Origin: Trypanosoma brucei
Lineage: Eukaryota
NCBI GenBank assembly: GCA_000002445.1
Contig: AL929603.2
Span: 1-64,000 of the forward strand
Reading direction: 5' to 3'
Length of the DNA stretch: 64,000 nt
In this document: positions 28,101 to 59,172 of the stretch, one piece after another
Layout: each line of letters starts with the position of its first letter
How positions within the stretch are numbered: position 1 is the first letter of the stretch
Position numbers and translations under genes: made by a program
The notes under the pieces: model-generated
The model's input: the letters and a program-made list of their open reading frames with translations, nothing else
Database searches by the model: none
Told to the model about the DNA's origin: nothing

Positions 28101-31100
28101 CGCAGTATAGTGCCACTTGTGTGAGAATACTTTTAGTACAAGCGAGTACACGCAGTATACTGCCACTTGTGTGAGAATACTTTTAGTACAAGCGAGTACA
28201 CGCAGTATAGTGCCACTTGTGTGAGAATACTTTTAGTACAAGCGAGTACACGCAGTATACTGCCACTTGTGTGAGAATACTTTTAGTACAAGCGAGTACA
28301 CGCAGTATACTGCCACGTGTGTGAGAATACTTTTAGTACAAGCGAGTACACGCAGTATAGTGCCACTTGTGTGAGAATACTTTTAGTACAAGCGAGTACA
28401 CGTTTTATACTGCCACTTGTGTGAGAATACTTTTAGTACAAGCGAGTGCACGCAGTATACTGCTACTTGTGTGAGAATACTTTTAGTACAAGCGAGTACA
28501 CGCAGTATACTGCCACGTGTGTGAGAATACTTTTAGTACAAGCGAGTACACGCAGTATAGTGCCACTTGTGTGAGAATACTTTTAGTACAAGCGAGTACA
28601 CGCAGTATACTGCCACTTGTGTGAGAATACTTTTAGTACAAGCGAGTACACGCAGTATACTGCTACTTGTGTGAGAATACTTTTAGTACAAGCGAGTACA
28701 CGCAGTATACTGCTACTTGTGTGAGAATACTTTTAGTACAAGCGAGTACACGCAGTATACTGCCACGTGTGTGAGAATACTTTTAGTACAAGCGAGTACA
28801 CGCAGTATAGTGCCACTTGTGTGAGAATACTTTTAGTACAAGCGAGTACACGCTCTATACTGCCACTTGTGTGAGAATACTTTTAGTACAAGCGAGTACA
28901 CGCAGTATACTGCTACTTGTGTGAGAATACTTTTAGTACAAGCGAGTACACGCAGTATACTGCTACTTGTGTGAGAATACTTTTAGTACAAGCGAGTACA
29001 CGCAGTATAGTGCCACTTGTGTGAGAATACTTTTAGTACAAGCGAGTACACGCAGTATACTGCCACTTGTGTGAGAATACTTTTAGTACAAGCGAGTACA
29101 CGCAGTATAGTGCCACTTGTGTGAGAATACTTTTAGTACAAGCGAGTACACGCTCTATACTGCCACTTGTGTGAGAATACTTTTAGTACAAGCGAGTACA
29201 CGCAGTATACTGCTACTTGTGTGAGAATACTTTTAGTACAAGCGAGTACACGCAGTATAGTGCCACTTGTGTGAGAATACTTTTAGTACAAGCGAGTACA
29301 CGCAGTATACTGCTACTTGTGTGAGAATACTTTTAGTCACAAGCGAGTACACGCAGTATACTGCTACTTGTGTGAGAATACTTTTAGTACAAGCGAGTAC
29401 ACGCAGTATAGTGCCACTTGTGTGAGAATACTTTTAGTACAAGCGAGTACACGCAGTATACTGCCACTTGTGTGAGAATACTTTTAGTACAAGCGAGTAC
29501 ACGCAGTATACTGCTACTTGTGTGAGAATACTTTTAGTACAAGCGAGTACACGCAGTATACTGCCACGTGTGTGAGAATACTTTTAGTACAAGCGAGTAC
29601 ACGCAGTATATTGCCACTTGTGTGAGAATACTTTTAGTACAAGCGAGTACACGCTCTATACTGCCACTTGTGTGAGAATACTTTTAGTACAAGCGAGTAC
29701 ACGCAGTATACTGCTACTTGTGTGAGAATACTTTTAGTACAAGCGAGTACACGCAGTATACTGCTACTTGTGTGAGAATACTTTTAGTACAAGCGAGTAC
29801 ACGCAGTATAGTGCCACTTGTGTGAGAATACTTTTAGTACAAGCGAGTACACGCTCTATACTGCCACTTGTGTGAGAATACTTTTAGTACAAGCGAGTAC
29901 ACGCAGTATACTGCTACTTGTGTGAGAATACTTTTAGTACAAGCGAGTACACGCAGTATACTGCTACTTGTGTGAGAATACTTTTAGTACAAGCGAGTAC
30001 ACGCAGTATAGTGCCACTTGTGTGAGAATACTTTTAGTACAAGCGAGTACACGCAGTATACTGCCACTTGTGTGAGAATACTTTTAGTACAAGCGAGTAC
30101 ACGCAGTATACTGCTACTTGTGTGAGAATACTTTTAGTACAAGCGAGTACACGCAGTATACTGCCACGTGTGTGAGAATACTTTTAGTACAAGCGAGTAC
30201 ACGCAGTATAGTGCCACTTGTGTGAGAATACTTTTAGTACAAGCGAGTACACGCTCTATACTGCCACTTGTGTGAGAATACTTTTAGTACAAGCGAGTAC
30301 ACGCAGTATACTGCTACTTGTGTGAGAATACTTTTAGTACAAGCGAGTACACGCAGTATACTGCTACTTGTGTGAGAATACTTTTAGTACAAGCGAGTAC
30401 ACGCAGTATACTGCTACTTGTGTGAGAATACTTTTAGTACAAGCGAGTACACGCAGTATACTGCTACTTGTGTGAGAATACTTTTAGTACAAGCGAGTAC
30501 ACGCAGTATACTGCTACTTGTGTGAGAATACTTTTAGTACAAGCGAGTACACGCAGTATACTGCTACTTGTGTGAGAATACTTTTAGTACAAGCGAGTAC
30601 ACGCAGTATACTGCTACTTGTGTGAGAATACTTTTAGTACAAGCGAGTACACGCAGTATACTGCCACTTGTGTGAGAATACTTTTAGTACAAGCGAGTAC
30701 ACGCAGTATACTGCTACTTGTGTGAGAATACTTTTAGTACAAGCGAGTACACGCAGTATACTGCCACGTGTGTGAGAATACTTTTAGTACAAGCGAGTAC
30801 ACGCAGTATAGTGCCACTTGTGTGAGAATACTTTTAGTACAAGCGAGTACACGCAGTATACTGCCACTTGTGTGAGAATACTTTTAGTACAGGGGAGTAC
30901 ACGCAGTATACTGCCACTTGTGTGAGAATACTTTTAGTACAAGCGAGTACACGCAGTATACTGCCACTTGTGAGAGAATACTTTTAGTACAAGCGAGTAC
31001 ACGCAGTATACTGCCACTTGTGTGAAAATACTTTTAGTACAAGCGAGTACACGCAGTATACTGCTACTTGTGTGAGAATACTTTTAGTACAAGCGAGTAC

Positions 31101-34100
31101 ACGCAGTATAGTGCCACTTGTGTGAGAATACTTTTAGTACAAGCGAGTACACGCAGTATACTGCCACTTGTGTGAGAATACTTTTAGTACAAGCGAGTAC
31201 ACGCAGTATACTGCTACTTGTGTGAGAATACTTTTAGTACAAGCGAGTACACGCAGTATACTGCCACGTGTGTGAGAATACTTTTAGTACAAGCGAGTAC
31301 ACGCAGTATAGTGCCACTTGTGTGAGAATACTTTTAGTACAAGCGAGTACACGCAGTATACTGCCACTTGTGTGAGAATACTTTTAGTACAAGCGAGTAC
31401 ACGCAGTATACTGCTACTTGTGTGAGAATACTTTTAGTACAAGCGAGTACACGCAGTATACTGCCACTTGTGTGAGAATACTTTTAGTACAAGCGAGTAC
31501 ACGCAGTATACTGCCACTTGTGTGAGAATACTTTTAGTACAAGCGAGTACACGCAGTATACTGCCACTTGTGTGAGAATACTTTTAGTACAAGCGAGTAC
31601 ACGCAGTATAGTGCCACTTGTGTGAGAATACTTTTAGTACAAGCGAGTACACGCTCTATACTGCCACTTGTGTGAGAATACTTTTAGTACAAGCGAGTAC
31701 ACGCAGTATACTGCTACTTGTGTGAGAATACTTTTAGTACAAGCGAGTACACGCAGTATACTGCTACTTGTGTGAGAATACTTTTAGTACAAGCGAGTAC
31801 ACGCAGTATACTGCCACTTGTGTGAGAATACTTTTAGTACAAGCGAGTACACGCTCTATACTGCCACTTGTGTGAGAATACTTTTAGTACAAGCGAGTAC
31901 ACGCTCTATACTGCTACTTGTGTGAGAATACTTTTAGTACAAGCGAGTACACGCAGTATACTGCTACTTGTGTGAGAATACTTTTAGTACAAGCGAGTAC
32001 ACGCAGTATACTGCTACTTGTGTGAGAATACTTTTAGTACAAGCGAGTACACGCAGTATAGTGCCACTTGTGTGAGAATACTTTTAGTACAAGCGAGTAC
32101 ACGCAGTATACTGCCACTTGTGTGAGAATACTTTTAGTACAAGCGAGTACACGCAGTATACTGCTACTTGTGTGAGAATACTTTTAGTACAAGCGAGTAC
32201 ACGCAGTATACTGCCACGTGTGTGAGAATACTTTTAGTACAAGCGAGTACACGCAGTATAGTGCCACTTGTGTGAGAATACTTTTAGTACAAGCGAGTAC
32301 ACGCTCTATACTGCCACTTGTGTGAGAATACTTTTAGTACAAGCGAGTACACGCAGTATACTGCTACTTGTGTGAGAATACTTTTAGTACAAGCGAGTAC
32401 ACGCAGTATACTGCTACTTGTGTGAGAATACTTTTAGTACAAGCGAGTACACGCAGTATAGTGCCACTTGTGTGAGAATACTTTTAGTACAAGCGAGTAC
32501 ACGCAGTATACTGCCACTTGTGTGAGAATACTTTTAGTACAAGCGAGTACACGCTCTATACTGCCACTTGTGTGAGAATACTTTTAGTACAAGCGAGTAC
32601 ACGCAGTATACTGCTACTTGTGTGAGAATACTTTTAGTACAAGCGAGTACACGCAGTATACTGCTACTTGTGTGAGAATACTTTTAGTACAAGCGAGTAC
32701 ACGCAGTATACTGCTACTTGTGTGAGAATACTTTTAGTACAAGCGAGTACACGCAGTATACTGCTACTTGTGTGAGAATACTTTTAGTACAAGCGAGTAC
32801 ACGCAGTATAGTGCCACTTGTGTGAGAATACTTTTAGTACAAGCGAGTACACGCAGTATACTGCCACTTGTGTGAGAATACTTTTAGTACAAGCGAGTAC
32901 ACGCAGTATACTGCTACTTGTGTGAGAATACTTTTAGTACAAGCGAGTACACGCAGTATACTGCCACGTGTGTGAGAATACTTTTAGTACAAGCGAGTAC
33001 ACGCAGTATAGTGCCACTTGTGTGAGAATACTTTTAGTACAAGCGAGTACACGCTCTATACTGCCACTTGTGTGAGAATACTTTTAGTACAAGCGAGTAC
33101 ACGCAGTATACTGCTACTTGTGTGAGAATACATTTAGTACAAGCGAGTACACGCAGTATACTGCTACTTGTGTGAGAATACTTTTAGTACAAGCGAGTAC
33201 ACGCAGTATACTGCCACTTGTGTGAGAATACTTTTAGTACAAGCGAGTACACGCAGTATAGTGCCACTTGTGTGAGAATACTTTTAGTACAAGCGAGTAC
33301 ACGCTCTATACTGCCACTTGTGTGAGAATACTTTTAGTACAAGCGAGTACACGCAGTATACTGCTACTTGTGTGAGAATACTTTTAGTACAAGCGAGTAC
33401 ACGCAGTATACTGCTACTTGTGTGAGAATACTTTTAGTACAAGCGAGTACACGCAGTATACTGCTACTTGTGTGAGAATACTTTTAGTACAAGCGAGTAC
33501 ACACAGTATACTGCCACTTGTGTGAGAATACTTTTAGTACAGGCGAGTACACGCAGTATAGTGCCACTTGTGTGAGAATACTTTTAGTACAAGCGAGTAC
33601 ACGCAGTATACTGCCACTTGTGTGAGAATACTTTTAGTACAAGCGAGTACACGCAGTATACTGCTACTTGTGTGAGAATACTTTTAGTACAAGCGAGTAC
33701 ACACAGTATACTGCCACTACTGTGAGAATACTTTTAGTACAGGCGAGTACACACAGTATACTGCCACTACTGTGAGAATACTTATAGTACAAGCGAGTAC
33801 ACGCAGTATAGTGCCACTTGTGTGAGAATACTTTTAGTACAAGCGAGTACACGCAGTATACTGCCACTTGTGTGAGAATACTTTTAGTACAAGCGAGTAC
33901 ACGCAGTATACTGCCACTTGTGTGAGAATACTTTTAGTACAGGCGAGTACACGCAGTATACTGCCACTTGTGTGAGAATACTTTTAGTACAAGCGAGTAC
34001 ACGCAGTATAGTGCCACTTGTGTGAGAATACTTTTAGTACAAGCGAGTACACGCTCTATACTGCCACTTGTGTGAGAATACTTTTAGTACAAGCGAGTAC

Positions 34101-37100
34101 ACGCAGTATACTGCTACTTGTGTGAGAATACTTTTAGTACAAGCGAGTACACGCAGTATACTGCCACTTGTGTGAGAATACTTTTAGTACAAGCGAGTAC
34201 ACGCAGTATACTGCTACTTGTGTGAGAATACTTTTAGTACAAGCGAGTACACGCAGTATAGTGCCACTTGTGTGAGAATACTTTTAGTACAAGCGAGTAC
34301 ACGCAGTATACTGCCACTTGTGTGAGAATACTTTTAGTACAAGCGAGTACACGCAGTATACTGCTACTTGTGTGAGAATACTTTTAGTACAAGCGAGTAC
34401 ACGCAGTATACTGCCACGTGTGTGAGAATACTTTTAGTACAAGCGAGTACACGCAGTATAGTGCCACTTGTGTGAGAATACTTTTAGTACAAGCGAGTAC
34501 ACGCAGTATACTGCCACTTGTGTGAGAATACTTTTAGTACAAGCGAGTACACGCAGTATACTGCCACTTGTGTGAGAATACTTTTAGTACAAGCGAGTAC
34601 ACGCAGTATACTGCCACTTGTGTGAGAATACTTTTAGTACAAGCGAGTACACGCAGTATACTGCCACTTGTGTGAGAATACTTTTAGTACAAGCGAGTAC
34701 ACGCAGTATACTGCCACTTGTGTGAGAATACTTTTAGTACAAGCGAGTACACGCAGTATACTGCCACTTGTGTGAGAATACTTTTAGTACAAGCGAGTAC
34801 ACGCAGTATACTGCTACTTGTGTGAGAATACTTTTAGTACAGGCGAGTACACGCAGTATACTGCCACCCCTGTAAGAATACTTTTAGTACAGGTTAGTAC
34901 ACACAGTATACTGCCACCCCTGTAAGAATACTTTTAGTACAGGCGAGTACACACAGTATACTGCCACCCCTGTAAGAATACTTTTAGTACAGGCGAGTAC
35001 ACACAGTATACTGCCACCCCTGTAAGAATACTTTTAGTACAGGCGAGTACACGCTGTATACTGCCACCCCTGTAAGAATACTTTTAGTACAGGCGAGTAC
35101 ACACAGTATACTGCCACCTCTGTAAGAATACTTTTAGTACAGGCGAGTACACACAGTATACTGCCACCCCTGTAAGAATACTTTTAGTACAGGCGAGTAC
35201 ACACAGTATACTGCCACCCCTGTAAGAATACTTTTAGTACAGGCGAGTACACACAGTATACTGCCACCCCTGTAAGAATACTTTTAGTACAAGCGAGTAC
35301 ACGCAGTATACTGCTACCCCTGTAAGAATACTTTTAGTACAGGCGAGTACACACAATATACTGCTACCCCTGTAAGAATACTTTTAGTACAGGCGAGTAC
35401 ACGCTCTATACTGCTACTCCTGTAAGAATACTTTTAGTACAGGCGAGTACACACAATATACTGCTACCCCTGTAAGAATACTTTTAGTACAAGCGAGTAC
35501 ACACAGTATACTGCCACCCCTGTAAGAATACTTTTAGTACAGGCGAGTACACACAGTATACTGCCACCCCTGTAAGAATACTTTTAGTACAGGCGAGTAC
35601 ACGCAGTATAGTGCCACTTGTGTGAGAATACTTTTAGTACAAGCGAGTACACGCAGTATACTGCCACCCCTGTAAGAATACTTTTAGTACAGGCGAGTAC
35701 ACACAGTATACTGCCACCCATGTACGAATACTTTTAGTACAGGCGAGTACACACAGTATACTGCCACCCCTGTGAGAATACTTTTCGTACAGGCGAGTAC
35801 ACACAGTATACTGCCACCCCTGTAAGAATACTTTTAGTATAAGCGAGTACACGCAGTATACTGCCACCCCTGTAAGAATACTTTTAGTATAAGCGAGTAC
35901 ACGCAGTATACTGCCACCCCTGTGAGAATACTTTTAGTACAGGCGAGTACACGCAGTATACTGCCACCCCTGTAAGAATACTTTTAGTACAGGCGAGTAC
36001 ACGCAGTATACTGCCACCCCTGTAAGAATACTTTTAGTACAGGCGAGTACACGCAGTATACTGCCACCTCTGTGAGAATACTTTTAGTACAGGCGAGTAC
36101 ACGCAGTATACTGCCACCCCTGTAAGAATACTTTTAGTACAGGCGAGTACACGCAGTATACTGCCACCCCTGTAAGAATACTTTTAGTACAAGCGAGTAC
36201 ACGCAGTATACTGCCACCCCTGTAAGAATACTTTTAGTACAGGCGAGTACACGCAGTATACTGCCACCCCTGTAAGAATACTTTTAGTACAGGCGAGTAC
36301 ACGCAGTATACTGCCCCCCCTGTGAGAATACTTTTAGTATAAGCGAGTACACGCAGTATACTGCTACCCCTGTGAGAATACGTTTAGTACAGGCGAGTAC
36401 ACGCAGTATACTGCTACCCCTGTGAGAATACTTTTAGTACAAGCGAGTACACGCAGTATACTGCTACCCCTGTGAGAATACTTTTAGTACAAGCGAGTAC
36501 ACGCAGTATACTGCCACCCCTGTAAGAATACTTTTAGTACAAGCGAGTACACACAGTATACTGCCACCCCTGTGAGAATACTTTTAGTACAAGCGAGTAC
36601 ACACAGTATACTGCTACTTGTGTGAGAATACTTTTAGTACAAGCGAGTACACACAGTATACTGCCACCCCTGTGAGAATACTTTTAGTACAGGCGAGTAC
36701 ACACAGTATACTGCCACCCCTGTGAGAATACTTTTAGTACAGGCGAGTACACGCAGTATACTGCCACCCCTGTAAGAATACTTTTAGTACAAGCGAGTAC
36801 ACGCAGTATACTGCCACTTGTGTGAGAATACTTTTAGTACAGGGGAGTACACGCTCTATACTGCCACCCCTGTGAGAATACTTTTAGTACAGGCTAGTAC
36901 ACACAGTATACTGCCACCCCTGTGAGAATACTTTTAGTACAGGGGAGTACACACAGTATACTGCCACCCCTGTGAGAATACTTTTAGCACAGGGGAGTAC
37001 ACACAGTATACTGCCACCCCTGTAAGAATACTTTTAGTACAGGCGAGTACACACAGTATACTGCCACCCCTGTGAGAATACTTTTAGTACAGGCGAGTAC

Positions 37101-40100
37101 ACGCTCTATACTACCACCCCTGTAAGAATACTTTTAGTACAGGCGTGTACACACAGTATACTGCCACCCCTGTAAGAATACTTTTAGTACAGGCGAGTAC
37201 ACACAGTATACTGCTACTTGTGTGAGAATACTTTTAGTACAAGCGAGTACACGCAGTATACTGCTACTTGTGTGAGAATACTTTTAGTACAAGCGAGTAC
37301 ACGCAGTATACTGCTACTTGTGTGAGAATACTTTTAGTACAAGCGAGTACACGCAGTATAGTGCCACTTGTGTGAGAATACTTTTAGTACAAGCGAGTAC
37401 ACGCAGTATACTACCACCCCTGTGAGAATACTTTTCGTACAGGCGAGTACACGCAGTATACTACCACCCCTGTAAGAATACTTTTAGTATAGGCGAGTAC
37501 ACGCAGTATACTACCACCCCTGTAAGAATACTTTTAGTATAGGCGAGTACACGCAGTATACTACCACCCCTATGCAATTACTTTTCGTACAGGCGAGTAC
37601 ACGCAGTATACTGCCACCCCTATGCAATTACTTTTCGTACAGGCGAGTACACGCAGTATACTGCCACCCCTGTAAGAATACGTTTCGTACAGGCGAGTAC
37701 ACACAGTATACTGCCACCCCTGTAAGAATACGTTTCGTACAGGCGAGTGCACACAGTATACTGCCACCCCTATGCAATTAGTTTTCGTACAGGCGAGTAC
37801 ACGCAGTATACTGCCACCCCTGTAAGAATACGTTTCGTACAGGCGAGTACACACAGTATACTGCCACCCCTATGCAATTAGTTTTCGTACAGGCGAGTAC
37901 ACGCAGTATACTGCCACCCCTGTAAGAATACTTTTAGTACAGGCGAGTACACGCAGTATACTGCCACCCCTGTGAGAATACTTTTAGTACAGGCGAGTAC
38001 ACACAGTATACTGCCACCCCTGTAAGAATACTTTTAGTACAGGGGAGTACACACAGTATACTGCCACCCCTGTAAGAATACTTTTAGTACAGGGGAGTAC
38101 ACGCAGTATACTGCCACCCCTGTGAGAATACTTTTAGTACAGGGGAGTACACACAGTATACTGCCACCCCTGTAAGAATACTTTTAGTACAGGGGAGTAC
38201 ACACAGTATACTGCCACCCCTGTAAGAATACTTTTAGTACAGGGGAGTACACACAGTATACTGCCACCCCTGTGAGAATACTTTTAGTACAGGCTAGTAC
38301 ACGCTCTATACTGCCACCCCTGTAAGAATACTTTTAGTACAGGGGAGTACACACAGTATACTGCCACCCCTGTGAGAATACTTTTAGTACAGGCGTGTAC
38401 ACACAGTATACTGCCACCCCTGTGAGAATACTTTTAGTACAGGCGTGTACACACAGTATACTGCCACCCCTGTAAGAATACTTTTAGTACAGGCGTGTAC
38501 ACACAGTATACTGCCACCCCTGTGAGAATACTTTTAGTACAGGCGTGTACACACAGTATACTGCCACCCCTGTAAGAATACTTTTAGTACAGGCGAGTAC
38601 ACACAGTATACTGCCACCCCTGTAAGAATACTTTTAGTACAGGCGAGTACACACAGTATACTGCCACCCCTGTGAGAATACTTTTAGTACAGGCGAGTAC
38701 ACACAGTATACTGCCACCCCTGTAAGAATACTTTTAGTACAGGCGAGTACACACAGTATACTGCCACCCCTGTAAGAATACTTTTAGTACAAGCGAGTAC
38801 ACACAGTATACTGCCACCCCTGTGAGAATACTTTTAGTACAAGCGAGTACACACAGTATACTGCCACCCCTGTGAGAATACTTTTAGTACAAGCGAGTAC
38901 ACACAGTATACTGCCACCCCTGTAAGAATACTTTTAGTACAGGCGAGTACACACAGTATACTGCCACCCCTGTGAGAATACTTTTAGTACAGGCGAGTAC
39001 ACACAGTATACTGTCACCCCTGTAAGAATACTTTTAGTACAGGCGAGTACACGCTCTAGACTGCTACCCCTGTAAGAATACTTTTAGTACAAGCGAGTAC
39101 ACACAATATACTGCCACCCCTGTGAGAATACTTTTAGTACAGGCGAGTACACACAATATACTGCTACCCCTGTAAGAATACTTTTAGTACAGGCGAGTAC
39201 ACACAATATACTGCTACCCCTGTAAGAATACTTTTAGTACAGGCGAGTACACACAATATACTGCCACCCCTGTAAGAATACTTTTAGTACAGGCGAGTAC
39301 ACACAGTATACTGCCACCCCTGTGAGAACACGTTTAGTACAGGCGAGTACACACAGTATACTGCCACCCCTGTAAGAATACTTTTAGTACAGGCGAGTAC
39401 ACACAGTATACTGCCACCCCTGTGAGAATACTTTTAGTACAGGCGAGTACACACAATATACTGCTACCCCTGTAAGAATACTTTTAGTACAGGCGAGTAC
39501 ACACAGTATACTGCCACCCCTGTGAGAATACTTTTAGTACAGGCTAGTACACACAGTATACTGCCACCCCTGTAAGAATACTTTTAGTACAGGCGAGTAC
39601 ACACAATATACTGCCACCCCTGTAAGAATACTTTTAGTACAGGCGAGTACACACAATATACTGCCACCCCTGTAAGAATACTTTTAGTACAAGCGAGTAC
39701 ACGCAGTATACTGTCCCCCCTGTGAGAATACTTTTAGTACAGGCGAGTACACACAGTATACTGCCACCCCAGTAAGAACACGTTTAGTACAAGCGAGTAC
39801 ACACAGTATACTGCCACCCCTGTAAGAATACTTTTAGTACAGGCGAGTACACACAGTATACTGCCACCCCTGTAAGAATACTTTTAGTACAGGCGAGTAC
39901 ACACAATATACTGCTACCCCTGTAAGAATACTTTTAGTACAGGCGAGTACACACAGTATACTGCCACCCCTGTAAGAATACGTTTCGTACAGGCGAGTGC
40001 ACGCAGTATACTACCACCCCTATGCAATTACTTTTTGTACAGGCGAGTGCACGCAGTATACTACCACCCCTATGCAATTACTTTTAGTACAGGCGAGTAC

Positions 40101-40153
40101 ACGCAGTATACTACCACCCCTATGCAATTACGTTTCGTACAGGCGAGTACACG
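13141..40153. repeat. 50-bp repeat array (~27 kb, ~540 units), the characteristic upstream boundary of T. brucei VSG expression sites
   Basis: Unit ctgccacttgtgtgagaatacttttagtacaagcgagtacacgcagtata (50 bp) is repeated head-to-tail with point variants. There is a sharp onset at 13141 after an AT-rich tract and a sharp end at ~40153 (acacggggggaacc). Stop-free frames generate the many artefactual 60-160-aa ORFs in the track. Confidence 0.93.
34850..40153. repeat. Divergent distal sub-families of the 50-bp repeat: type II ctgccacccctgtaagaatacttttagtacaggcgagtacacacagtata and type III ctaccacccctatgcaattac(g/t)ttt(c/a)gtacaggcgagt(a/g)cacgcagtata
   Basis: Read directly. From ~34850 the cttgtgtgag core is replaced by cccctgtaag/cccctgtgag, and aagcgag by aggcgag/aggggag. 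Short re-intrusions of the type I unit occur at ~36600 and 37200-37380. Type III blocks are at ~37550-37900 and 39960-40140. Confidence 0.85.
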
Positions 40154-41025: not shown

Positions 41026-41331
41026 TTATAAAAAATGTTTAGAAACAGATGGTGATGAACAATCCTTCTGACAGGACTGCAGTGGTGGGATGAGCACCTC
41101 AACATCAGCACCATTATGGGTGGCGTCCACCGTCCAAACAGTTGTGTACGGGACAGCGGTCACAAGGCGATTTTGTGTTATTTCAGCGAGAGGAGTAAAG
41201 AAATCCACACGGCACTGGTCGTCTTGATCTGCATTTTTTTCCAAAGATGACAGCAACACCACAAGCAGAGCTAAAGCATGCATAGGCGGAACAGCACCCT
41301 CGTCGATATGGAACAACACAGCAACTGTCAC
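41026..41331 (-). CDS. Hypothetical 101-aa ORF (unassigned) between the 50-bp array and the duplicated RHS unit
   Basis: Only an ORF is seen and no recognisable motif. It is on the same strand as all other genes. Confidence 0.15.
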   Translation of the reverse strand: MTVAVLFHIDEGAVPPMHALALLVVLLSSLEKNADQDDQCRVDFFTPLAEITQNRLVTAVPYTTVWTVDATHNGADVEVLIPPLQSCQKDCSSPSVSKHFL

Positions 41332-42039
41332 GCTCTCATTTCCTTTAGCGCGTGCATCAACTACTCATGTTACATACACTACCTGTAGAGCCACCTTCAG
41401 ACACATTAATATATCAATGTATTTAAAATAAAGTAAAAAAAAAAAGAAAATAGAAAAGAAAAGAAGTGAAGAGGACTTCACTGCATTTTCACGGCATACA
41501 ACGGCGAAATCGTTATTTTCGTTGTTGTTTTCTCTCCCTCCATCTCTTTTGTTATCGCCAAATAACAAAAGGAACCATGAATATTATCACAATTACTGCG
41601 CGTTACAGTTTGGTGTCACATTTTATTTTTAAATCCCCATGTGAGGATGCGCAATTTAGTGTACAGATAAATTTCACCCGATTCATCATTCTTCATGCAG
41701 GAAAGATGTATCAAAAAAAAAGTAAAAAATAAAAAAAAGAGAAATCACACTTTATACTATTTCTATCATTGGAATCCCATGAAATCAAGCGAAAGACACG
41801 TACTTATTCCCATTCCTTGAAGTTCTTGAAGTAAAATCTTGAACACATTGGGGGAATCCACATGTGAGACGGGTATTTTTGGCATTACATTATGAACAAT
41901 ACATGTCCTCTTCTCACCATTTATAACCCACACGAGCAGCATCAAATATAAATTGTGAAGAGGTATGAGATCACAAGGAGCTCGCTCTCATTGAGAAGGT
42001 TGGATGCGTCATATATATATATAATCATGTAATCCCTTT

Positions 42040-43798
42040 TCATTTCAACAATACGCAAACCTCCACTGCGGAATCGACTTTGAATGAGTTGACCTCGTCA
42101 GCACGAAACGGGGCCCGCCCAGTGGCATGAACATTAATCTTATCAGTAAACATGTGTTTGAGGTGTTGGTAATAAATGGGGTCAAAGAAAACATAAGTGC
42201 GTATCATCTTCCCCGTTATGCCCGAGTGGAAAATATACATCATCTCCGTGAAGATAATTGTATCCATGTTGTATCAATTCCTCATCCAGCTCTTCATCCT
42301 TATCGGTACCCAAAGATAGTGCCATCGCCTAACTTTTCCGTGAATGCACTCACACCTTTGAGCTAACAAGTTCCAGCAACTTTCCAACTGTCATACGGCT
42401 CGGGAATCCATGAGAATTTATGATCATATCTGTGCAAATGCCTTTACTCATTGAAGGGCATGTTAATACACCATCAGTCATGAGATCCACTACTCCCTCC
42501 AGCCCGTGCCGTGAGGAAAACTTATTTCAGACCTCGGGACCGCGAACTTCTCTCGTAGCAACTTTAACTTTATTGTTCTACATCCATTGATATATCCGAG
42601 TCACTGGAAGGTGAGAGATGACCACATTTGGTTCACAACAGCAGGCTGAGGGTATTTATTATATTCAAGAAAATTAGGTCTTGTTTTCATGGAAGGCACG
42701 GGAGGGTATTTGTTTACTAAAATATCAAACTGACAAACAGCCGCACCTTTACTACTGGCAATACCATCAATATTAAAGGCATTGTGTCTCGCAACATTCC
42801 AATCTGTTGGAAGAATTATATCATACATACTCACCGTTGGGAAGTCTTTCCAGTTCCATCTCATGCTTGCAGAAAACAACATAGCACCCATAGCCACAAT
42901 TGAGCGAACTGCGGTTGTGTACACCTTTGCGTCTTCAATATCGTAACCTCTATAGCTCATAATGCATACCATTGTATTAATTCCCGCATCTAATATTTTG
43001 TAGTTGCTTAGGTTCATAGCCTTCGTCCAGCAAAGGGATCGTTGAGAGTAAGCACTCAACATAAGTACTGTGTCCATTTATAATGTACTGAATATACGCA
43101 ATGGTTCCAACAGCTTGCTTGCCAATGGCTGACTGTAATGTGTTTCGTGCAAATTGATTGTGATGTGGAAAGGAAAATAATGCTAGCGACAACTCCAAGT
43201 GAGTCTCGTGTACTGCTCAATGTCTTTGTGGTGAACTGCTATAAGACAGACATTCGCTTCGTCATATAAGTCAATGAATTCCACAACAAACCTTCAGCTA
43301 AAATATCGTTAATCGATCACTTACTTGAACTCAAGTTATCCAGGTGTTAAGAAATTACAGCGTGTTTACCGTCGCTAACGAAAACATACAACCTCACGAT
43401 CCTTCTGCCAACACAAACAATTTGAACACTCTTCTGACGGTCATTTATCGCAATTGAAACGTGTGGATGCAAGCGGCCTGTGTTCCTCAGGGTTCGTAAT
43501 ACATCCCGACACAAACGGCTCATGTATCGATAAACGCACATCAGCACTTCATTGAGGAAAACTGTGTAGTATTTAAGAAATTCGTTAAGGCTGATATAAT
43601 CTATTTCCTCCACTCCAATATTGTACGCATCCGCATGTAAACAAACAAATTATCCATGTTGAGTGTTACCTGACTAAGAATAGCAAAATTATTAACCAAA
43701 CAGCAACAACTTTCACCCTCTGGGGTATTGCAAGGAGGGATATACACCATTCCCCATTGACTTGAATAGAGAAATAATGATCCGCACATGTGGGTCAA
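42040..43798 (-). pseudogene. Degenerate pseudogene of a DNA-directed RNA polymerase second-largest subunit (RPB2/RPA2/RPC2 family; C-terminal ~half), copy A
   Basis: Four collinear minus-strand ORF pieces carry hallmark motifs of the second-largest subunit in the correct N-to-C order. These are PEGESCCCLVNNFAILS (cf. PEG..CGLVKNL; ORF 43601-43798), VLRTLRNTGRLHPHVSIAINDRQKSVQIVCVGRRIVRLYVFVSDGK (cf. [39 protein letters not shown]; 43347-43613), IMSYRGYDIEDA (cf. GYNQEDS / Pol I GYDMEDA; 42601-43077), and HSGITGKMIRTYVFFDPIYYQHLKHMFTDKINVHATG (cf. HTGK...IF.GP.YYQRLRHMVDDKIHAR.RGP; 42040-42267). Catalytic and invariant residues are altered and the frames are broken, so this is a pseudogene. 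Confidence 0.7.
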
Positions 43799-44936
43799 TA
43801 CACGAAGTCATGGTCACTCCACTGCTGCCGTTACATATGATCACTGCATGGTTTTCGTATCAATGTTGATGATGATATGGGATTTGCTGCTGGAGGCAAC
43901 CAGAAACATAAGTTTAAGGTTCCCACGTGTGGAGAGAGGCCCAACTGCCAACCCTCAAGCAGGATAACAGAAGTGATTATAAGTAAAGAGAAGACAACAT
44001 ATCATAGCATGTTTACCCACCGACACATAATTGAAGAAAGAAAGAGATAGAAAGAGAGGAAAATAGAAACAATCACGTCACCAGCTGCGTGTCTGCGAAG
44101 AGCATCATCAAGAGCTGCTCCATAACTGCAACCATAACTAACATGTATAATATAATTATAACAGCTCGTATATAAAACAGCACATCCAGTAATTGCTTCT
44201 AATGTTTGCATATTTCGCTCCGTCACAATCTCTCTCCCATGACACCTACTAGAAATACAACTCAGAGGAGTTATAGTTTAGGCATGTTTCCAATACGCTC
44301 TCTCCACCAAGGATGGCGAAGAAGCAAAAAGTACTATTACATTTTTGTTCTTTTTATCATTGGCCTATAGATCCCTATCTCTACACGGATGTAAAATTTA
44401 GATTGTATAAATGAAAAGAAGATGTGAAGAGTTAGTGTAGTATAATCCAATCCTATAGTTTGTAATAGCACAAATGAAAACAAAACGTCACAATGTTTTC
44501 TTACGTCTTTCGATAACATTATTTCTGTCTTTCTTTGTGACCCTTAAGATTACGATGTGGCTTAACTCCAGTTATGCGTTAGCCTATAAAATACTGCACT
44601 CCTTCTACTTCCTCCACTACGTTGTCGTCTCGCCACGTTTCCTTGGAAACTTCATTACATTCATACCATGGCCTCCTTGCTGCACCCAAAAGAAAAAGCA
44701 GCTACACCTCCTTGCCCGCTGTGAGGTTACTGAATATACTTCGGACGTCACTGATTATGTGCACCTCTGTGTTACTCTTGTTTTGACTGCAGTCCGCTGA
44801 ACTTGGTTTCCTTTCAAACTGCCACACCCCAAGCGCTGCCCACTGCCGAGGAGATTGAACCGCATATATTCACCTCCTTCCACAGCGTCCGTTGCGTGTC
44901 AAACAACAGCGACTGGCCTTACTCCAGCTATTGGGT

Positions 44937-46994
44937 TCACCTTCGCTTTGCTTTCATCGCTCGCCTTCCCTGTGCCTTTTTTGCTTCCTGAAGATCTACC
45001 ATCAGATGAGCATTCATTTCGTCCCCAAACGTTACCTGGAATTGTTCAATCGTTTCCCAAAATGTTTGAAGTTGTTTCGCCTTCCTGGCAGGGATAACTT
45101 TGTCGACGTTAGCCTCACATTTTTGCCAATTGGTAATCACACCGCCATTAACTCCATTCATGTATATCATCTCCCAAGCCATGTTACCCGAAAACGTGTT
45201 CCAGTCCGAAAAATATCCTTTAATTCTCTCCGTGAACGCATTCAACTTTGTCGCAGTGGTGGAGTGACAGCCCGACTTGGTCACGTGTAAAAGGACAAGT
45301 GTCTTTGGTTTTGGCGCTTTTTTCGCTTGCCTTCCAGGCGACATCGTGAAGCGCCCCTCAACGAAAAAAAAGCCATCCACCAAGGGTTCATAGGCTGTGG
45401 CGGGAGTGTAGAGCACCATGTATTCGCAGCGTTCAATTGGGTTCTGCCTGGCTGCTGGTAAGACTTCCCATCCAGTGAGGCACAACTGCTGAGGAGTCAT
45501 GCTACTCAGTATACTTTGTTTTCCCCTCAGCTTCTCAGGCGGATGGAGGTGTCTCAAGTTCTTTGCCATCATCTCGAGAACTCGAGGATTGAGCACCGCA
45601 AACAACGCATGGCTTTCAAATGAAATGAAAGCGGCACTTCTGTTTCTCATCATGAGCTGGGACTCTGCTACTTTTCGCGCAGTAATGCCAAGCACCGCCC
45701 AAAGTAGCAAGGTCCTTATGTGCCCGGAAAGCTCTTTGCTGCGATATGAATCTCCGGAAACTCCATTTCCACGCGAACGGACTATCTGTACCATCTGGTA
45801 CGACACCTCTTCAGTTTGCCAGTTCATTGATGACCTAAAAAGATCCTCGCAGCCATTTTTATCATTAGCATCGAGGCCTCTTATTTTTTTTGCCACCGCC
45901 TCCATTCGCCCGCCGTGCCCCACAGCGTCGTAAACGGCACGAGGCACCGGGCCTGCCACGGCAATACGCTGCTTTACAGTTTCCCATTCGTCCTTTAGTC
46001 CTCCTCTTAACTCTTGTTTCGCCGTGTTGGATACCTTTTTATCTAATGCTACTGATAAATTCTTCCATGCCACAAACGCCTTTATGTCACGCACATCATC
46101 GCAGTTTATAATAATATGGCGGCTTCCCATGTCCTTTTCCCACTCCTCGTAATGTACCGTATCGGGGGAAGTGAGGACAGTTACACCCCAACCCAAATGG
46201 CACAGCTCATCAGGCGGTATAAGTAAGCTCTTACCGATGTCGACAATGATGTGACCTCTTTTTTTTCTTATTGTTTTTATGAAGGTAACGGCGGAATCGG
46301 TGCTTCTGTCTTCCTCAACCCTCCCCTCTTCTCCGGGTTTCTTGTTATATATTAGGTAAGCGATTTTACCCACGAAATATGCAACAACATCAAGCATTCC
46401 TTCATGGAAGTGAAGCAGTGAATGAAGCAAAAATGATCCAAGGCCACATGATTTACCAATACCAGGTGTACCAATAACAATATGTATCGGTGAATCCTCA
46501 GCTTTTTCTACCCAACATGCTCTCAGCCCTTTTTCGACTTTATACCACACGCGCATAATTTCACGACGGATGTATACATGTTTAAATTTTTCGTTGCACC
46601 TCTCAGTGTGGCCCAATGCAAACCTGTTGTATGGCCAACCCTTCTCCGAAGTGAGAACGAAAATCTCCAAACCATCGGGTCTCTCCTCAATCTCTGCATC
46701 AACATTCGCAGGGTCAGGAGTTATATCAACCTCCGCTTCGGTCCATATGCGCTGTGGTTTTCCATCGAACACTTTCATTCCAAGTGGATCTTCATCATAA
46801 CCCGACATCACATAACTCCATTTCGCATTATAAATGGAATCGTATAATTTCTCTTCGAGAGATTTGCCCTCTCCGGTTTCTGATGGGTTCTCGTTTTTTC
46901 GGCCGGCTTGTCTCTTCATCGGGCGGTACGCACCATTCAACCATCCATTTAAAATATTCCGAGTATCTCCCACACAACCACCATTCTGATTCAT
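44937..46994 (-). CDS. RHS: Retrotransposon hot spot (RHS) protein, 685 aa, with a P-loop NTPase motif and an alternative short N-terminus
   Basis: Conserved RHS core KLYDSIYNAKWSYVMSGY...PDGLEIFVLTSEKGWPYNRFALGHTE...VYIRREIMRVWYKVEKGL...IHIVIGTPGIGKSCGLGSFLLHSLLHF (Walker A GTPGIGKS)...INCDDVRDIKAFVAWK.... It is collinear with the 856-aa copy at 60266-62836. The first ~55 residues differ and ~170 residues are absent relative to copy B. Confidence 0.8.
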   Translation of the reverse strand: MNQNGGCVGDTRNILNGWLNGAYRPMKRQAGRKNENPSETGEGKSLEEKLYDSIYNAKWSYVMSGYDEDPLGMKVFDGKPQRIWTEAEVDITPDPANVDAEIEERPDGLEIFVLTSEKGWPYNRFALGHTERCNEKFKHVYIRREIMRVWYKVEKGLRACWVEKAEDSPIHIVIGTPGIGKSCGLGSFLLHSLLHFHEGMLDVVAYFVGKIAYLIYNKKPGEEGRVEEDRSTDSAVTFIKTIRKKRGHIIVDIGKSLLIPPDELCHLGWGVTVLTSPDTVHYEEWEKDMGSRHIIINCDDVRDIKAFVAWKNLSVALDKKVSNTAKQELRGGLKDEWETVKQRIAVAGPVPRAVYDAVGHGGRMEAVAKKIRGLDANDKNGCEDLFRSSMNWQTEEVSYQMVQIVRSRGNGVSGDSYRSKELSGHIRTLLLWAVLGITARKVAESQLMMRNRSAAFISFESHALFAVLNPRVLEMMAKNLRHLHPPEKLRGKQSILSSMTPQQLCLTGWEVLPAARQNPIERCEYMVLYTPATAYEPLVDGFFFVEGRFTMSPGRQAKKAPKPKTLVLLHVTKSGCHSTTATKLNAFTERIKGYFSDWNTFSGNMAWEMIYMNGVNGGVITNWQKCEANVDKVIPARKAKQLQTFWETIEQFQVTFGDEMNAHLMVDLQEAKKAQGRRAMKAKRR

Positions 46995-57200: not shown

Positions 57201-57400
57201 GCACCTTGGTGAGATCACTTTCACTCATTTGCACTTATTGGTCAACACCATTTAGTTCGTCATTCAACACACTCCCTTACATGTCCTCTTCTCACCATTT
57301 ATAACCCACACGAGCAGCATCAAATATAAATTGTGAAGAGGTATGAGATCACAAGGAGCTCGCTCTCATTGAGAAGGTTGGATGCGTCATATATATATAA

Positions 57401-59172
57401 TCATGTAATCCCTTTCCATTTCAACAATACGCAAACCTCAACTGCGGAATCGACTTTGAATGAGTTGACCTCGTCAGCATGAAACGGAGTCCGCCCAGTG
57501 GCATGAACATTAATCTTATCAGTAAACATGTGTTTGAGGTGTTGGTAATAAATGGGGTCAAAGAAAACATAAGTGCGTATCATCTTCCCCGTTATGCCCG
57601 AGTGGAAAATATACATCATCTCCGTGAAGATAATTGTATCCATGTTGTATCAATTCCTCATCCAGCTCTTCATCCTTATCGGTACCCAAAGGCATTGCCA
57701 TCGCCTAACTTTTTCCGTGAATGCACTCACACCTTTAAGCTAACGAGTTCCAGCAACTTTCCATCTGTCATACGGCTCGGGAATCCATGAGAATTTATGA
57801 TCATATCTGGGCAAATGCCTTTACTCATTGAAGGGCATGTTAACACACCATCAGTCATGAGATCCACTACTCCCTCCAGCCGGTGCCGTGAGGAAAACTT
57901 ATTTCAGACCTCGGGACCGCGAACTTCTCTCGTAGCAACTTTAACTTTATTGTTCTACATCCATTGATATATCCGAGTCACTGGAAGGTGAGAGATGACC
58001 ACATTTGGTCCACAACAGCTGGCTGAGGGTATTTATTATATTCAAGAAAATTAGGTATTGTTTCCTTGAAAGGCACGGGAGTTTATTTGTTTACAAAAAT
58101 ATCAAACTGACGAATAACCGCACCTTTACTACTGGCAATACCATCAATATTAAAGGCATTGTGTCTCGCAACATTTCAATCTGTTGGAAGAATTATATCA
58201 TACATACTCACCGTTGGGAAGTCTTTCCAGTTTCATTTCATGCTTACAAAAAACAACACAACAACCGTAGCCACAATTGAGCGAACTGCGGTTGTACACA
58301 TTTGCGTCTTCAATATTGTAACCTCTATAGCTCATAATGCATACCATCGTATTAATTCCTGCGCCTAATATTTCGTAGTTGCTTAGGTTCATAGCCTTCG
58401 TCCGGCAAAGGGATAGTTGAGAGTAAGCACTCAACATAAGTACTGTGTCCATTTCTAATGTACTGAATATACGCAATGGTTCCAACAGCTTGCTTGCCCG
58501 TGGCTGACTGTAATGTGTTTCGTGCAAATTGATTGTGATGTGGAAAGGAGAATAATGCTAGCGACAACTCCAAGTGAGTCTCGTGTACTGCTCAATGTCT
58601 TTGTGGTGAACTGCTAAAAGACAGTCATTCGCTTCATCATATAAGTCAATGAATTCCACAACAAACCTTCAGCTAAAATATCGTTAATCGAGCACTTGCC
58701 TGAACTCAAGTTATCCAGGCGTTGAGAAATTACAGCGTGTTTCCCGTCGCTAACGAAAACGTACAACCTCACGATCCTTCCGCCAACAAAACAATTTGAA
58801 CACTCTTCTGACGGTCATTTATCGCAATTGAAACGTGTGGATGCAAGCGGCCTGACCTCCTCAGGGTTCGTAATACATCCCGACACAAACGGCTCATGTA
58901 TCGATAAACGCACATCAGCACTTCATTGAGGAAAACTGTGTAGTATTTAAGAAATTCGTTAGGGCTGATATAATCTATTTCCTCCACTCCAATATTGTAC
59001 GCATCCGCATGTAAACAAACAAATTATCCATGTCTAGTGTTACCTGACTAAGAATAGCAAAATTATTAACCAAACAGCAACAACTTTTACCCTCTGGGGT
59101 ATCGCAAGGAGGGATATACACCATTCCCCATTGACTTGAATAGAGAAATAATGATCCGCACATGTGGGTCAA
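57401..59172 (-). pseudogene. Degenerate RNA polymerase second-largest-subunit pseudogene, copy B
   Basis: ORFs 58975-59172 (PEGKSCCCLVNNFAILS), 58769-58987 (VLRTLRRSGRLHPHVSIAINDRQKSVQIV, truncated earlier than in copy A), 58198-58527 (IMSYRGYNIEDA) and 57401-57643 (HSGITGKMIRTYVFFDPIYYQHLKHMFTDKINVHATG). The motif set and order are the same as in copy A. Confidence 0.7.

What the first reader, a model, noticed from the sequence alone, without database searches (positions are those of the whole stretch)
42040..43798. Degenerate RNA polymerase second-largest-subunit pseudogene embedded in the RHS duplication unit, with a Pol I-like GYD[IM]EDA motif
Four hallmark motifs of the beta-like second-largest subunit occur in the correct order on one strand across ~1.7 kb. 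These are PEG..C.LV.N, TLR..GR..P.VS...D...K..QIV..GRR..R..F, GYD/N-IEDA, and HSGITGK...FF.P.YYQ.LKHM.DKI..HATG. Catalytic-region residues are altered and the frames are broken. The GY(D/N)IEDA form resembles the Pol I subunit (GYDMEDA) more than the Pol II/III form (GYNQEDS), and this locus sits immediately upstream of a Pol I-transcribed VSG expression site. A dispersed, decayed paralog of a core polymerase subunit travelling with RHS genes is unexpected. It could mark an ancient segmental transfer from the RPA2/RPB2 locus into subtelomeres. A second copy is at 57401-59172.
Basis: partly seen in the sequence, partly recalled or inferred. Interest (0 to 1): 0.7.

Follow-up and report, generated by a model that had tools for sequence, protein, structure and literature searches.

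The report
Dead Pol III RPC2 gene fragment
Two copies of a decayed, front-truncated relic of the RNA polymerase III second-largest-subunit gene (RPC2, not the Pol I subunit) sit downstream of RHS4 genes near the left end of Trypanosoma brucei chromosome 1; this is an ordinary pseudogene, useful at most as a marker of how the subtelomere was built.

Summary
The minus strand at 43,790-41,766 carries a collinear, frame-broken relic of an RNA polymerase second-largest subunit. A second copy lies at 59,163-57,305. The window is the left end of T. brucei TREU927 chromosome 1. The relic derives from Pol III RPC2, not Pol I. Frame-corrected, it scores 424/416 bits against human/yeast RPC2, 251-281 against RPB2 and only 165-182 against Pol I RPA2. 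"GYDIEDA" is the exact RPC2 motif; solved Pol I subunits read GYDM[D/E]DA. It nests inside kinetoplastid RPC2 (100% bootstrap) and is closest to T. rangeli RPC2 (67%). It covers only the C-terminal ~58% of the protein, and copy 1 reaches the natural stop codon. Each copy has about 16-18 frameshifts and 6 stops; 16 lesions are shared. Differences between copies show no codon-position bias, and 27% of universally invariant RPC2 residues are lost. It was therefore dead before a sharp-edged 2.7-kb block (95.6% identical) was duplicated downstream of two RHS4 genes that are only 53% identical. Synteny suggests the functional RPC2 lies on the same chromosome arm, so a local DNA-level duplication is the likeliest origin. 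Its position beside the Pol I expression site is coincidental. Interest is low.

The parts
41766..43790 (-). psi-RPC2 copy 1: a 5'-truncated, frame-broken relic of the Pol III second-largest subunit gene. It corresponds to about residues 471-1127 of human RPC2 (1133 aa) and ends at the natural stop codon TGA (41768-41766).
   Evidence: TBLASTN collinear HSPs, P0001 aa 322-972. Frame-aware alignment 43783->41784: 641 aa pairs, 59% identity, about 18 frameshifts and 6 stops. C-terminus FKILLQELQGMGISTCLSLDFMGFQ* versus T. rangeli FKLLLQELQGMGISTRLSLDFIGRQ. PDB coverage.
57305..59163 (-). psi-RPC2 copy 2: the same relic, additionally 3'-truncated at the block edge (57278). It lacks the last ~45 codons and the stop codon.
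   Evidence: P0001 aa 322-927; 594 aa pairs, 61% identity, about 16 frameshifts and 6 stops; sharp breakpoint at 41900/57278.
41900..44590 (-). 2.7-kb low-copy repeat block, copy 1. It comprises about 800 nt of non-coding sequence (44590-43791) plus psi-RPC2 down to 41900.
   Evidence: blastn 41900-44595 versus 57278-59979, 95.6% over 2707 nt. Sharp edges and windowed identity. No RPC2 N-terminal remnant in the upstream part and no protein homologues.
57278..59975 (-). 2.7-kb low-copy repeat block, copy 2.
43676..43783 (-). C-terminal half of Rpb2 domain 3 (fork) with PEGESCCCLVNN. The 5' truncation point lies inside this domain.
   Evidence: P0001 domain 3 spans aa 295-359, while homology starts at aa 322-324.
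43377..43562 (-). Rpb2 domain 4 remnant (copy 1); copy 2 equivalent at 58752-58936.
   Evidence: Pfam PF04566, E=5e-08 and 3e-07; coordinates.
42074..43174 (-). Rpb2 domain 6 (hybrid-binding/catalytic region) remnant (copy 1); copy 2 at 57450-58549. It contains GYDIEDA (42948-42928), a stop codon then NKFSSRHGLEG (parent GDKFSSRHGQKG; KFSSRH at 42523-42506), HGFPSRMT (42412-42389), HSGITGK (42228-42208) and YYQHLKHM (42174-42151).
   Evidence: Pfam PF00562, E=3e-79 and 6e-77; motif coordinates.
41799..42064 (-). Rpb2 domain 7 (clamp/Zn region) remnant, copy 1 only. It includes GGLRIVEMKRD (parent GGLRVGEMERD).
   Evidence: Pfam PF04560, E=3e-10.
44937..46994 (-). RHS4 gene (685 aa, XP_846380.1/CAD53013.1) immediately upstream of block copy 1, on the same strand.
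   Evidence: Exact-sequence look-up.
60266..62836 (-). RHS4 gene (856 aa, XP_846383.1/CAD53018.1) immediately upstream of block copy 2. It is only 53-54% identical to the other RHS4 protein.
13147..40153 (.). 50-bp repeat array (about 540 copies) that separates psi-RPC2 copy 1 from the short telomeric VSG expression site (VSG at 381-1961, minus strand).

Best explanation
This is a non-functional, 5'-truncated pseudogene of the trypanosome's own RNA polymerase III second-largest subunit gene (RPC2/C128). A segment holding the C-terminal ~58% of the coding sequence, through the natural stop codon, was copied into the RHS-rich subtelomere of T. brucei chromosome 1. The copying was most likely a DNA-level segmental duplication or ectopic recombination from the functional RPC2 locus, which conserved synteny places on the same chromosome arm. 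The copy lacked the N-terminal half and any promoter or trans-splicing context of its own, so it was dead on arrival or soon after, and it accumulated frameshifts, stops and losses of invariant residues. Much later, a 2.7-kb block (about 800 nt of non-coding DNA plus most of the relic) was duplicated or gene-converted to a second site downstream of another RHS4 gene, and the two copies have drifted neutrally since. It has no role in Pol I or Pol III function, and its position next to the expression site is a by-product of subtelomeric patchwork recombination. Shown: identity as RPC2, truncation, decay, shared lesions, neutral drift and block structure. Inferred: the donor locus, the DNA-level mechanism and the lack of function.
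For: Class: frame-corrected translation scores 424.5/416.4 bits against human/yeast RPC2, 251-281 against RPB2, 284-297 against archaeal Rpo2 and 165-182 against RPA2/RPA135 (the same ranking with the uncorrected translation). All top hits among 5.8 billion proteins are RPC2, with kinetoplastid entries first. The motif GYDIEDA is identical in human, yeast and kinetoplastid RPC2, against GYDM[D/E]DA in Pol I. Phylogeny: 67% identity to T. rangeli RPC2, 58-60% to Angomonas and 52% to Trypanoplasma. Bootstrap support is 100% for placement inside kinetoplastid RPC2 and 89% with the trypanosomatid-type group. Pseudogene status: about 16-18 frameshifts and 6 stops per copy, with 16 lesions shared. 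27% of the 150 positions invariant in 12 functional RPC2s are lost; 31 are changed identically in both copies, against 4-5 private to each. Differences between copies fall 23/19/26 on codon positions 1/2/3 (p=0.57), and the substitution rate equals that of the adjacent non-coding DNA (3.6% vs 4.5%). No ORF of the relic is present in the 15-billion-protein collection. Truncation: no N-terminal remnant upstream (score 38 vs 42±6 for shuffles); Pfam domains 1-2 are absent and domain 3 is cut. Block: sharp edges, the 3' edge lies inside the coding relic, and the neighbouring RHS4 proteins are only 53% identical. Donor locus: in Angomonas the gene order is BRCA2-ASF1-x-PHO4-DOT1-WD40-RPC2. The T. 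brucei orthologues are Tb927.1.640 (PMC5825156), Tb927.1.630 (PMC3950673) and Tb927.1.570 (PMC4765897). The window itself is Tb927.1.30 onward. There are no retroposition hallmarks: no target-site duplication, no poly(A) tract after the stop, and a T-rich 3' flank.
Against: The functional T. brucei RPC2 sequence and locus could not be retrieved with these tools. The parent-copy divergence, the exact donor position and any flank homology are therefore untested, and the same-arm location rests on synteny with a distant trypanosomatid plus three gene IDs. The sister relationship to T. rangeli RPC2 has only 47% bootstrap support. No remnant of the RPC2 neighbour genes was found in the window, so a DNA-level origin is favoured only by the absence of retroposition marks, which could have eroded. 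Transcription and small-RNA production were not testable, so 'no function' is an inference from the decay pattern. Frameshift counts depend on the penalties of my own aligner and are approximate.
Confidence: 0.88

Rival explanations
1. One reading: a Pol I (RPA2)-like or RPA2/RPB2-derived pseudogene whose presence next to a Pol I-transcribed VSG expression site is meaningful.
For: The motif starts GYD as in Pol I (GYDMEDA), rather than GYN as in Pol II. The locus lies 1.6 kb from the 50-bp repeats of an expression site.
Against: Pol I subunits are the weakest match of the three nuclear classes, at 165-182 bits against 416-424 for RPC2. GYDIEDA is the exact RPC2 motif, while solved Pol I subunits have M at the fourth position. 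The relic nests in kinetoplastid RPC2 with 100% bootstrap support.
Confidence: 0.01
2. Processed (retroposed) pseudogene: an RPC2 mRNA was reverse-transcribed by the ingi/RIME machinery, giving a typical 5'-truncated, 3'-complete copy that was later amplified with the block.
For: The relic is 5'-truncated but complete to the natural stop codon, which is the classic LINE-mediated pattern. The region is a retrotransposon hot-spot gene cluster. An A10 run lies about 1 kb downstream of the stop, at 40771.
Against: There is no poly(A) tract near the stop. The 3' flank is T-rich, intergenic-like sequence. No target-site duplication is present, and the longest word shared between the junctions is 9 nt. 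Trypanosome genes lack introns, so the usual intron test is unavailable.
Confidence: 0.1
3. A functional, divergent RPC2 paralogue whose apparent frameshifts are sequencing errors or are bypassed (recoding or editing).
For: Long stretches remain open (158-aa ORF, 42601-43077), and many motifs are still recognisable.
Against: Each copy has 16-18 frameshifts and 6 stops, and 16 of these lesions recur at the same positions in two independently assembled copies. There is no codon-position bias. 27% of universally invariant residues are lost. The N-terminal 42% of the protein is absent. Copy 2 lacks its C-terminus.
Confidence: 0.005
4. Foreign origin: a fragment of a viral (giant-virus) or other horizontally acquired RNA polymerase subunit gene.
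For: Subtelomeres collect foreign and mobile DNA, and viral RPB2 homologues do appear in the hit list.
Against: Viral homologues score only 97-122 bits. The relic groups with kinetoplastid RPC2 at 100% bootstrap and is closest to a Trypanosoma sequence. Its C-terminal 25 residues are nearly identical to those of T. rangeli RPC2.
Confidence: 0.005

Closest known systems
RNA polymerase III second-largest subunit RPC2 (yeast C128/Ret1, human POLR3B); trypanosomatid orthologues such as T. rangeli TRSC58_04384 and Angomonas deanei RPC2
   Same: The order of Rpb2 domains 3(part)-4-6-7 is collinear. The RPC2-specific motif GYDIEDA is present. RPC2 is the best-scoring class by more than 130 bits. The relic is 67% identical to T. 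rangeli RPC2 over the C-terminal 434 residues, with the same C-terminal tail and stop position.
   Different: There is no intact reading frame (16-18 frameshifts and 6 stops per copy). The N-terminal ~42% (protrusion, lobe and part of the fork) is missing. 27% of invariant residues are substituted, for example GDKFSSRHGQKG to a stop codon followed by NKFSSRHGLEG, and GGLRVGEMERD to GGLRIVEMKRD. It is a relic, not a working member.
Duplicated (non-processed) gene-fragment pseudogenes in subtelomeric patchworks, such as the RHS, VSG and ESAG pseudogenes of T. brucei subtelomeres (general knowledge of trypanosome genome organisation)
   Same: It is a truncated fragment located in an RHS cluster, carried in a sharp-edged low-copy block and evolving neutrally. 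Block identity (95.6%) is decoupled from that of the neighbouring genes (53%), as expected from ectopic recombination or gene conversion.
   Different: The parent is a single-copy housekeeping core gene, not a member of a subtelomeric multigene family. The donor locus and the number of copies genome-wide were not determined here.
LINE-mediated processed pseudogenes
   Same: 5' truncation with a complete 3' coding end.
   Different: No poly(A) tail and no target-site duplication were detected.
RNA polymerase I second-largest subunit RPA2/RPA135
   Same: It belongs to the same Rpb2 superfamily and shares the generic domain-6 motifs.
   Different: It is the lowest-scoring nuclear class (165-182 bits), and its motif GYDM[D/E]DA differs at the diagnostic position.

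Membership tests
Rpb2 superfamily (second-largest subunit of multisubunit RNA polymerases) | Collinear Pfam Rpb2 domains with significant scores | tested here: met
   PF00562 E=3e-79, PF04560 E=3e-10 and PF04566 E=5e-08, in the correct order. TBLASTN HSPs are collinear.
Rpb2 superfamily (second-largest subunit of multisubunit RNA polymerases) | Intact full-length reading frame encoding all domains (needed for a functional member) | tested here: not met
   About 16-18 frameshifts and 6 stops per copy. Domains 1-2 are absent and domain 3 is cut. It is therefore a pseudogene of the family, not a member protein.
Pol III RPC2 orthologue group (as the parent of the relic) | Scores higher against RPC2 than against RPB2, RPA2 or archaeal Rpo2 | tested here: met
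   416-424 bits against 251-281, 165-182 and 284-297 bits. The top 120 database hits are all RPC2-type wherever a source gives a name.
Pol III RPC2 orthologue group (as the parent of the relic) | RPC2-type motif GYDIEDA in domain 6 | tested here: met
   Copy 1 has GYDIEDA and copy 2 GYNIEDA. Human, yeast and kinetoplastid RPC2 have GYDIEDA.
Pol III RPC2 orthologue group (as the parent of the relic) | Phylogenetic nesting within RPC2 of the host lineage | tested here: met
   100% bootstrap inside kinetoplastid RPC2 and 89% with the trypanosomatid-type sequences; the nearest sequence is T. rangeli. T. brucei RPC2 itself was not available.
Pol I RPA2/RPA135 orthologue group | Best match to RPA2 and the Pol I motif GYDM[D/E]DA | tested here: not met
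   Lowest score of the three nuclear classes. The motif has I, not M.
Pol I RPA2/RPA135 orthologue group | Trypanosome RPA2-specific N-terminal extension (my recollection of the literature; not checked here) | not testable with these tools
   The N-terminal 42% of the gene is absent from the relic.
Processed (retroposed) pseudogene | 3' poly(A) tract and flanking target-site duplication | tested here: not met
   The sequence after the stop is T-rich, the only A-run (A10) is about 1 kb away, and the longest shared junction word is 9 nt. Erosion cannot be excluded.
Duplicated (DNA-level) pseudogene | Homology to the parent locus extending beyond the transcript or into neighbouring genes | tested here: inconclusive
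   Neighbours of RPC2 from two other kinetoplastid contigs leave no trace in the window.
Neutrally evolving sequence (pseudogene criterion) | No codon-position bias, a substitution rate equal to flanking non-coding DNA, and loss of invariant residues | tested here: met
   23/19/26 differences at codon positions 1/2/3 (p=0.57). Rates are 3.6% vs 4.5%. 27% of invariant positions are lost.

The most novel reading that the evidence does not exclude
The relic is not inert. Transcribed together with the RHS4 genes, with some antisense transcription, it would feed the RNAi pathway and produce pseudogene-derived small RNAs that modulate the functional RPC2 mRNA, linking subtelomere state to Pol III capacity. 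A milder version is that the block is a dated fossil of the original core/subtelomere boundary of chromosome 1, from which the RHS array expanded.
Probability: 0.04. Interest if true: 0.55.

Novelty: new member of a known kind. Interest (0 to 1): 0.18.

Why it matters
It matters little for polymerase biology, because no evidence ties this relic to Pol I, to expression-site control or to Pol III function. Its modest value is as an evolutionary marker. A fragment of a single-copy housekeeping gene inside an RHS cluster gives a datable, unambiguous tag for tracing how T. brucei subtelomeres were assembled. The lesion pattern indicates a long period of decay before the block duplication (31 shared against 4-5 private losses of invariant residues). 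The mismatch between block identity (95.6%) and RHS4 identity (53%) documents patchwork recombination at kilobase scale. If the parent gene really is the core gene nearest the RHS array on the same arm, the relic would record capture of boundary sequence during array expansion. The case is also a caution against assigning a polymerase class from one short motif.

Tried and rejected
1. Two homology searches returned only proteins under 1000 aa, apparently because candidate selection favours short fragments, so no full-length T. brucei paralogue was obtained. I substituted kinetoplastid RPC2 fragments and the solved Pol I/II/III structures.
2. Finding other copies or strains through RHS4. Encoding-contig look-ups for both window RHS4 proteins and for H25N7.12 found nothing on record, so genome-wide copy number is unknown.
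3. Exact look-up of the relic's ORFs (158, 88 and 75 aa). None is in the collection.
4. Synteny remnants. Neighbours of RPC2 from an unnamed kinetoplastid contig (L001) and from Angomonas (L002) give no significant hits in the window.
5. N-terminal half of RPC2 upstream of 43,790. Not detectable.
6. Retroposition marks. None found.
7. Homologues of open segments in both flanks. None among 8000 candidates.
8. tRNA or Rfam genes near the relic. None.
9. Literature. Six full-text searches and several paper look-ups found no description of an RPC2 pseudogene in T. brucei. The RHS family paper and the chromosome I paper are not held. A 2026 preprint mentions 'RNA Polymerase III' beside accession XM_001218756.1, but its accession mapping conflicts (XP_001218755.1 is the VSG), so I did not rely on it.
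10. Biopython's clade-support routine gave meaningless values on arbitrarily rooted NJ trees. I recomputed support as unrooted bipartitions.
Full report
Where we are. Exact-sequence look-ups identify the window as the left end of Trypanosoma brucei brucei TREU927 chromosome 1 (1,064,672 bp). The VSG at 381-1961 (minus strand) is XP_001218755.1. The ORF at 11158-11865 is Tb927.1.30. The ORFs at 44937-46994 and 60266-62836 (both minus) are two annotated RHS4 proteins, XP_846380.1 and XP_846383.1. 70-bp-type repeats lie at 3464-6325, and a 27-kb array of about 540 50-bp repeats lies at 13147-40153. On the minus strand the order is therefore RHS4, the finding, 50-bp repeats, a short expression site, VSG, telomere.

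Checking the observation. A crude concatenation of the open pieces matches Pfam RNA_pol_Rpb2_6 at E=1e-51. TBLASTN with four kinetoplastid RPC2 proteins gives strictly collinear HSPs that hop between frames. In copy 1 they run 43789->41784 (residues 322-972 of the 975-aa partial protein P0001). In copy 2 they run 59163->57305 (residues 322-927). I wrote a frame-aware protein-to-DNA aligner. It gives 641 aligned residues at 59% identity with about 18 frameshifts and 6 in-frame stops for copy 1, and 594 residues at 61% with about 16 frameshifts and 6 stops for copy 2. The counts depend on my penalty settings and are approximate. The frame-corrected translations match Rpb2 domain 6 (E=3e-79 and 6e-77), domain 4 and, in copy 1 only, domain 7. 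The duplication is real: 41900-44595 matches 57278-59979 at 95.6% identity over 2707 nt. Its last 25 residues (FKILLQELQGMGISTCLSLDFMGFQ*) are almost the same as the C-terminus of T. rangeli RPC2.

Which polymerase. Against all solved structures, the frame-corrected copy 1 scores 424.5 bits on human RPC2 and 416.4 on yeast RPC2. It scores 284-297 on archaeal Rpo2, 251-281 on Pol II RPB2 and only 165-182 on Pol I RPA2/RPA135. The uncorrected translation gives the same ranking. All 120 best hits among 5.8 billion proteins are RPC2-type wherever a source names them, and kinetoplastid entries come first. The solved Pol I subunits read GYDMDDA (yeast) or GYDMEDA (S. pombe, human). Over the C-terminal 434 residues the relic is 67% identical to T. 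rangeli RPC2, 58-60% to Angomonas, 59-61% to P0001, 52% to Trypanoplasma and 43-45% to animal and fungal RPC2. In neighbour-joining bootstraps counted as unrooted splits, it falls inside kinetoplastid RPC2 in 100% of replicates and with the trypanosomatid-type sequences in 89%. Its position as sister to T. rangeli has only 47% support. It is therefore an endogenous trypanosome RPC2 derivative, not Pol I, not Pol II and not foreign.

How dead it is, and when it died. Homology begins inside Rpb2 domain 3. Nothing resembling the N-terminal 322 residues of P0001 is detectable in the 1.1 kb upstream (score 38, against 42±6 for shuffled queries), so about 42% of the gene is missing. Of the roughly 20 lesions in the region common to both copies, 16 occur at the same positions in both. 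Of 150 alignment columns invariant in 12 functional RPC2s from kinetoplastids to plants, animals and fungi, the relic has lost 27%. Of these losses, 31 are identical in both copies and only 4-5 are private to each. Differences between the copies fall evenly on codon positions (23/19/26, p=0.57). They occur at the same rate as in the adjacent non-coding part of the block (3.6% vs 4.5%). The gene was thus inactive long before the block was duplicated, roughly seven times longer by the shared-to-private ratio, which is a rough inference. It has drifted neutrally since. None of its ORFs exists as a protein in the 15-billion-sequence collection.

The block and its neighbours. The high-identity block has sharp edges at about 44590/59975 and at exactly 41900/57278. 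The latter edge lies inside the RPC2 reading frame, so copy 2 lacks the last ~45 codons and the stop. Copy 1 is the more complete version. The upstream ~800 nt of the block is non-coding and has no homologues. Each block starts about 290-340 nt after the stop of an RHS4 gene on the same strand. Yet the two RHS4 proteins are only 53-54% identical, and their DNA aligns only over an ~800-nt core at about 82%. The relic-bearing block has therefore been duplicated or homogenised independently of the RHS genes it follows. 'Embedded in the RHS duplication unit' is only loosely true.

Origin. The copy is 5'-truncated and 3'-complete, which fits retroposition. However, the sequence after the stop is T-rich and intergenic-like. 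The only A-run is 1 kb away, and the junctions share nothing longer than 9 nt. Neighbour genes of RPC2 from two other kinetoplastid contigs leave no trace in the window, and flank ORFs have no homologues. One positive lead emerged. In Angomonas deanei the gene order is BRCA2, ASF1, an unnamed gene, PHO4 permease, DOT1, WD40, RPC2. The T. brucei BRCA2, Asf1A and DOT1B genes are Tb927.1.640, Tb927.1.630 and Tb927.1.570. By conserved synteny the functional T. brucei RPC2 should lie just below Tb927.1.570 on chromosome 1. That is the same arm as this window (Tb927.1.30 onward), probably close to where the RHS-rich region meets the core. My unverified recollection of the ID is Tb927.1.540. I therefore favour a local DNA-level segmental duplication of the 3' part of a boundary core gene into the RHS array. 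This step is inferred, not shown, and I give it about even odds against retroposition or a more distant donor.

Function. Nothing suggests any. There are no tRNA or Rfam genes nearby. The relic derives from the Pol III enzyme, so its position 1.6 kb from the 50-bp repeats of a Pol I-transcribed expression site carries no mechanistic meaning. It is probably transcribed passively with the RHS4 genes (inference). A small-RNA role cannot be excluded with these tools but is unlikely, because both copies lie in the same orientation and are heavily diverged.

Known or new. I found no paper describing an RPC2 pseudogene in T. brucei. The papers most likely to mention it, on the RHS family and on chromosome I, are not in the held library, and the curated genome database could not be consulted. 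Since this is a 20-year-old reference chromosome, a pseudogene feature may well already exist there. In kind it is an ordinary duplicated gene-fragment pseudogene in a recombinogenic subtelomere.

Noticed in passing
window 44937-46994 and 60266-62836 versus 41900-44590 and 57278-59975: The two annotated RHS4 proteins are only 53-54% identical, while the 2.7-kb non-coding/pseudogene block just downstream of each is 95.6% identical with sharp edges. This points to kilobase-scale gene conversion or independent insertion of the block, rather than duplication of a whole RHS unit.
   Followed up: partly
window 50401-52205 (minus strand): The 516-aa ORF (50655-52205) is an RHS fragment, 62-65% identical to the N-terminal/central part of RHS4a. 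Similarity continues in another frame at 50670-50401, so this is probably a frameshifted RHS pseudogene. The exact ORF is not in the protein collection.
   Followed up: partly
window 13147-40153: A very long 50-bp repeat array: about 540 copies, 27 kb, 95% matches, with an occasional 99-bp step. It lies upstream of an unusually short expression site, with only about 7 kb between the array and the 70-bp repeats.
   Followed up: no
window 3464-6325: Degenerate 70-80-bp repeats rich in TTA/ATT (GC 0.21, strong GC skew) lie immediately upstream of the VSG at 381-1961. These are typical 70-bp-type repeats.
   Followed up: no
window 41029-41364 (minus strand): A GC-richer island holds a 112-codon open segment between the relic's stop codon and the 50-bp repeats. 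It has no homologue in the protein database, and its origin is unexplained.
   Followed up: partly
window 47000-50000 and 52200-56000: AT-rich stretches (GC 0.29-0.32) lie between the RHS genes. They have no long ORFs, and their content was not examined.
   Followed up: no
L002 7671-11302 (Angomonas deanei LR877148.1): The annotated Angomonas RPC2 protein (433 aa) covers only the C-terminal part. A 716-codon open segment with an RPC2-like N-terminus lies just upstream in another frame, so the gene model looks split. The T. rangeli model (434 aa, on a 1.7-kb contig) starts at the same methionine.
   Followed up: no
bioRxiv 10.64898/2026.06.15.732286, section 4.2: The preprint assigns XM_001218756.1/XM_001218755.1 to 'RNA Polymerase III' and a 'conserved hypothetical', and XM_001218754.1 to a VSG. 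Here XP_001218755.1 is the VSG at 381-1961, so its accession-to-function mapping appears shifted or unreliable.
   Followed up: partly
tool behaviour: the search for homologous proteins returned no protein of 1000 aa or more for an RPC2 query, although full-length RPC2 is 1100-1200 aa. Its candidate selection seems to favour short fragments, which hid the T. brucei orthologue.
   Followed up: no
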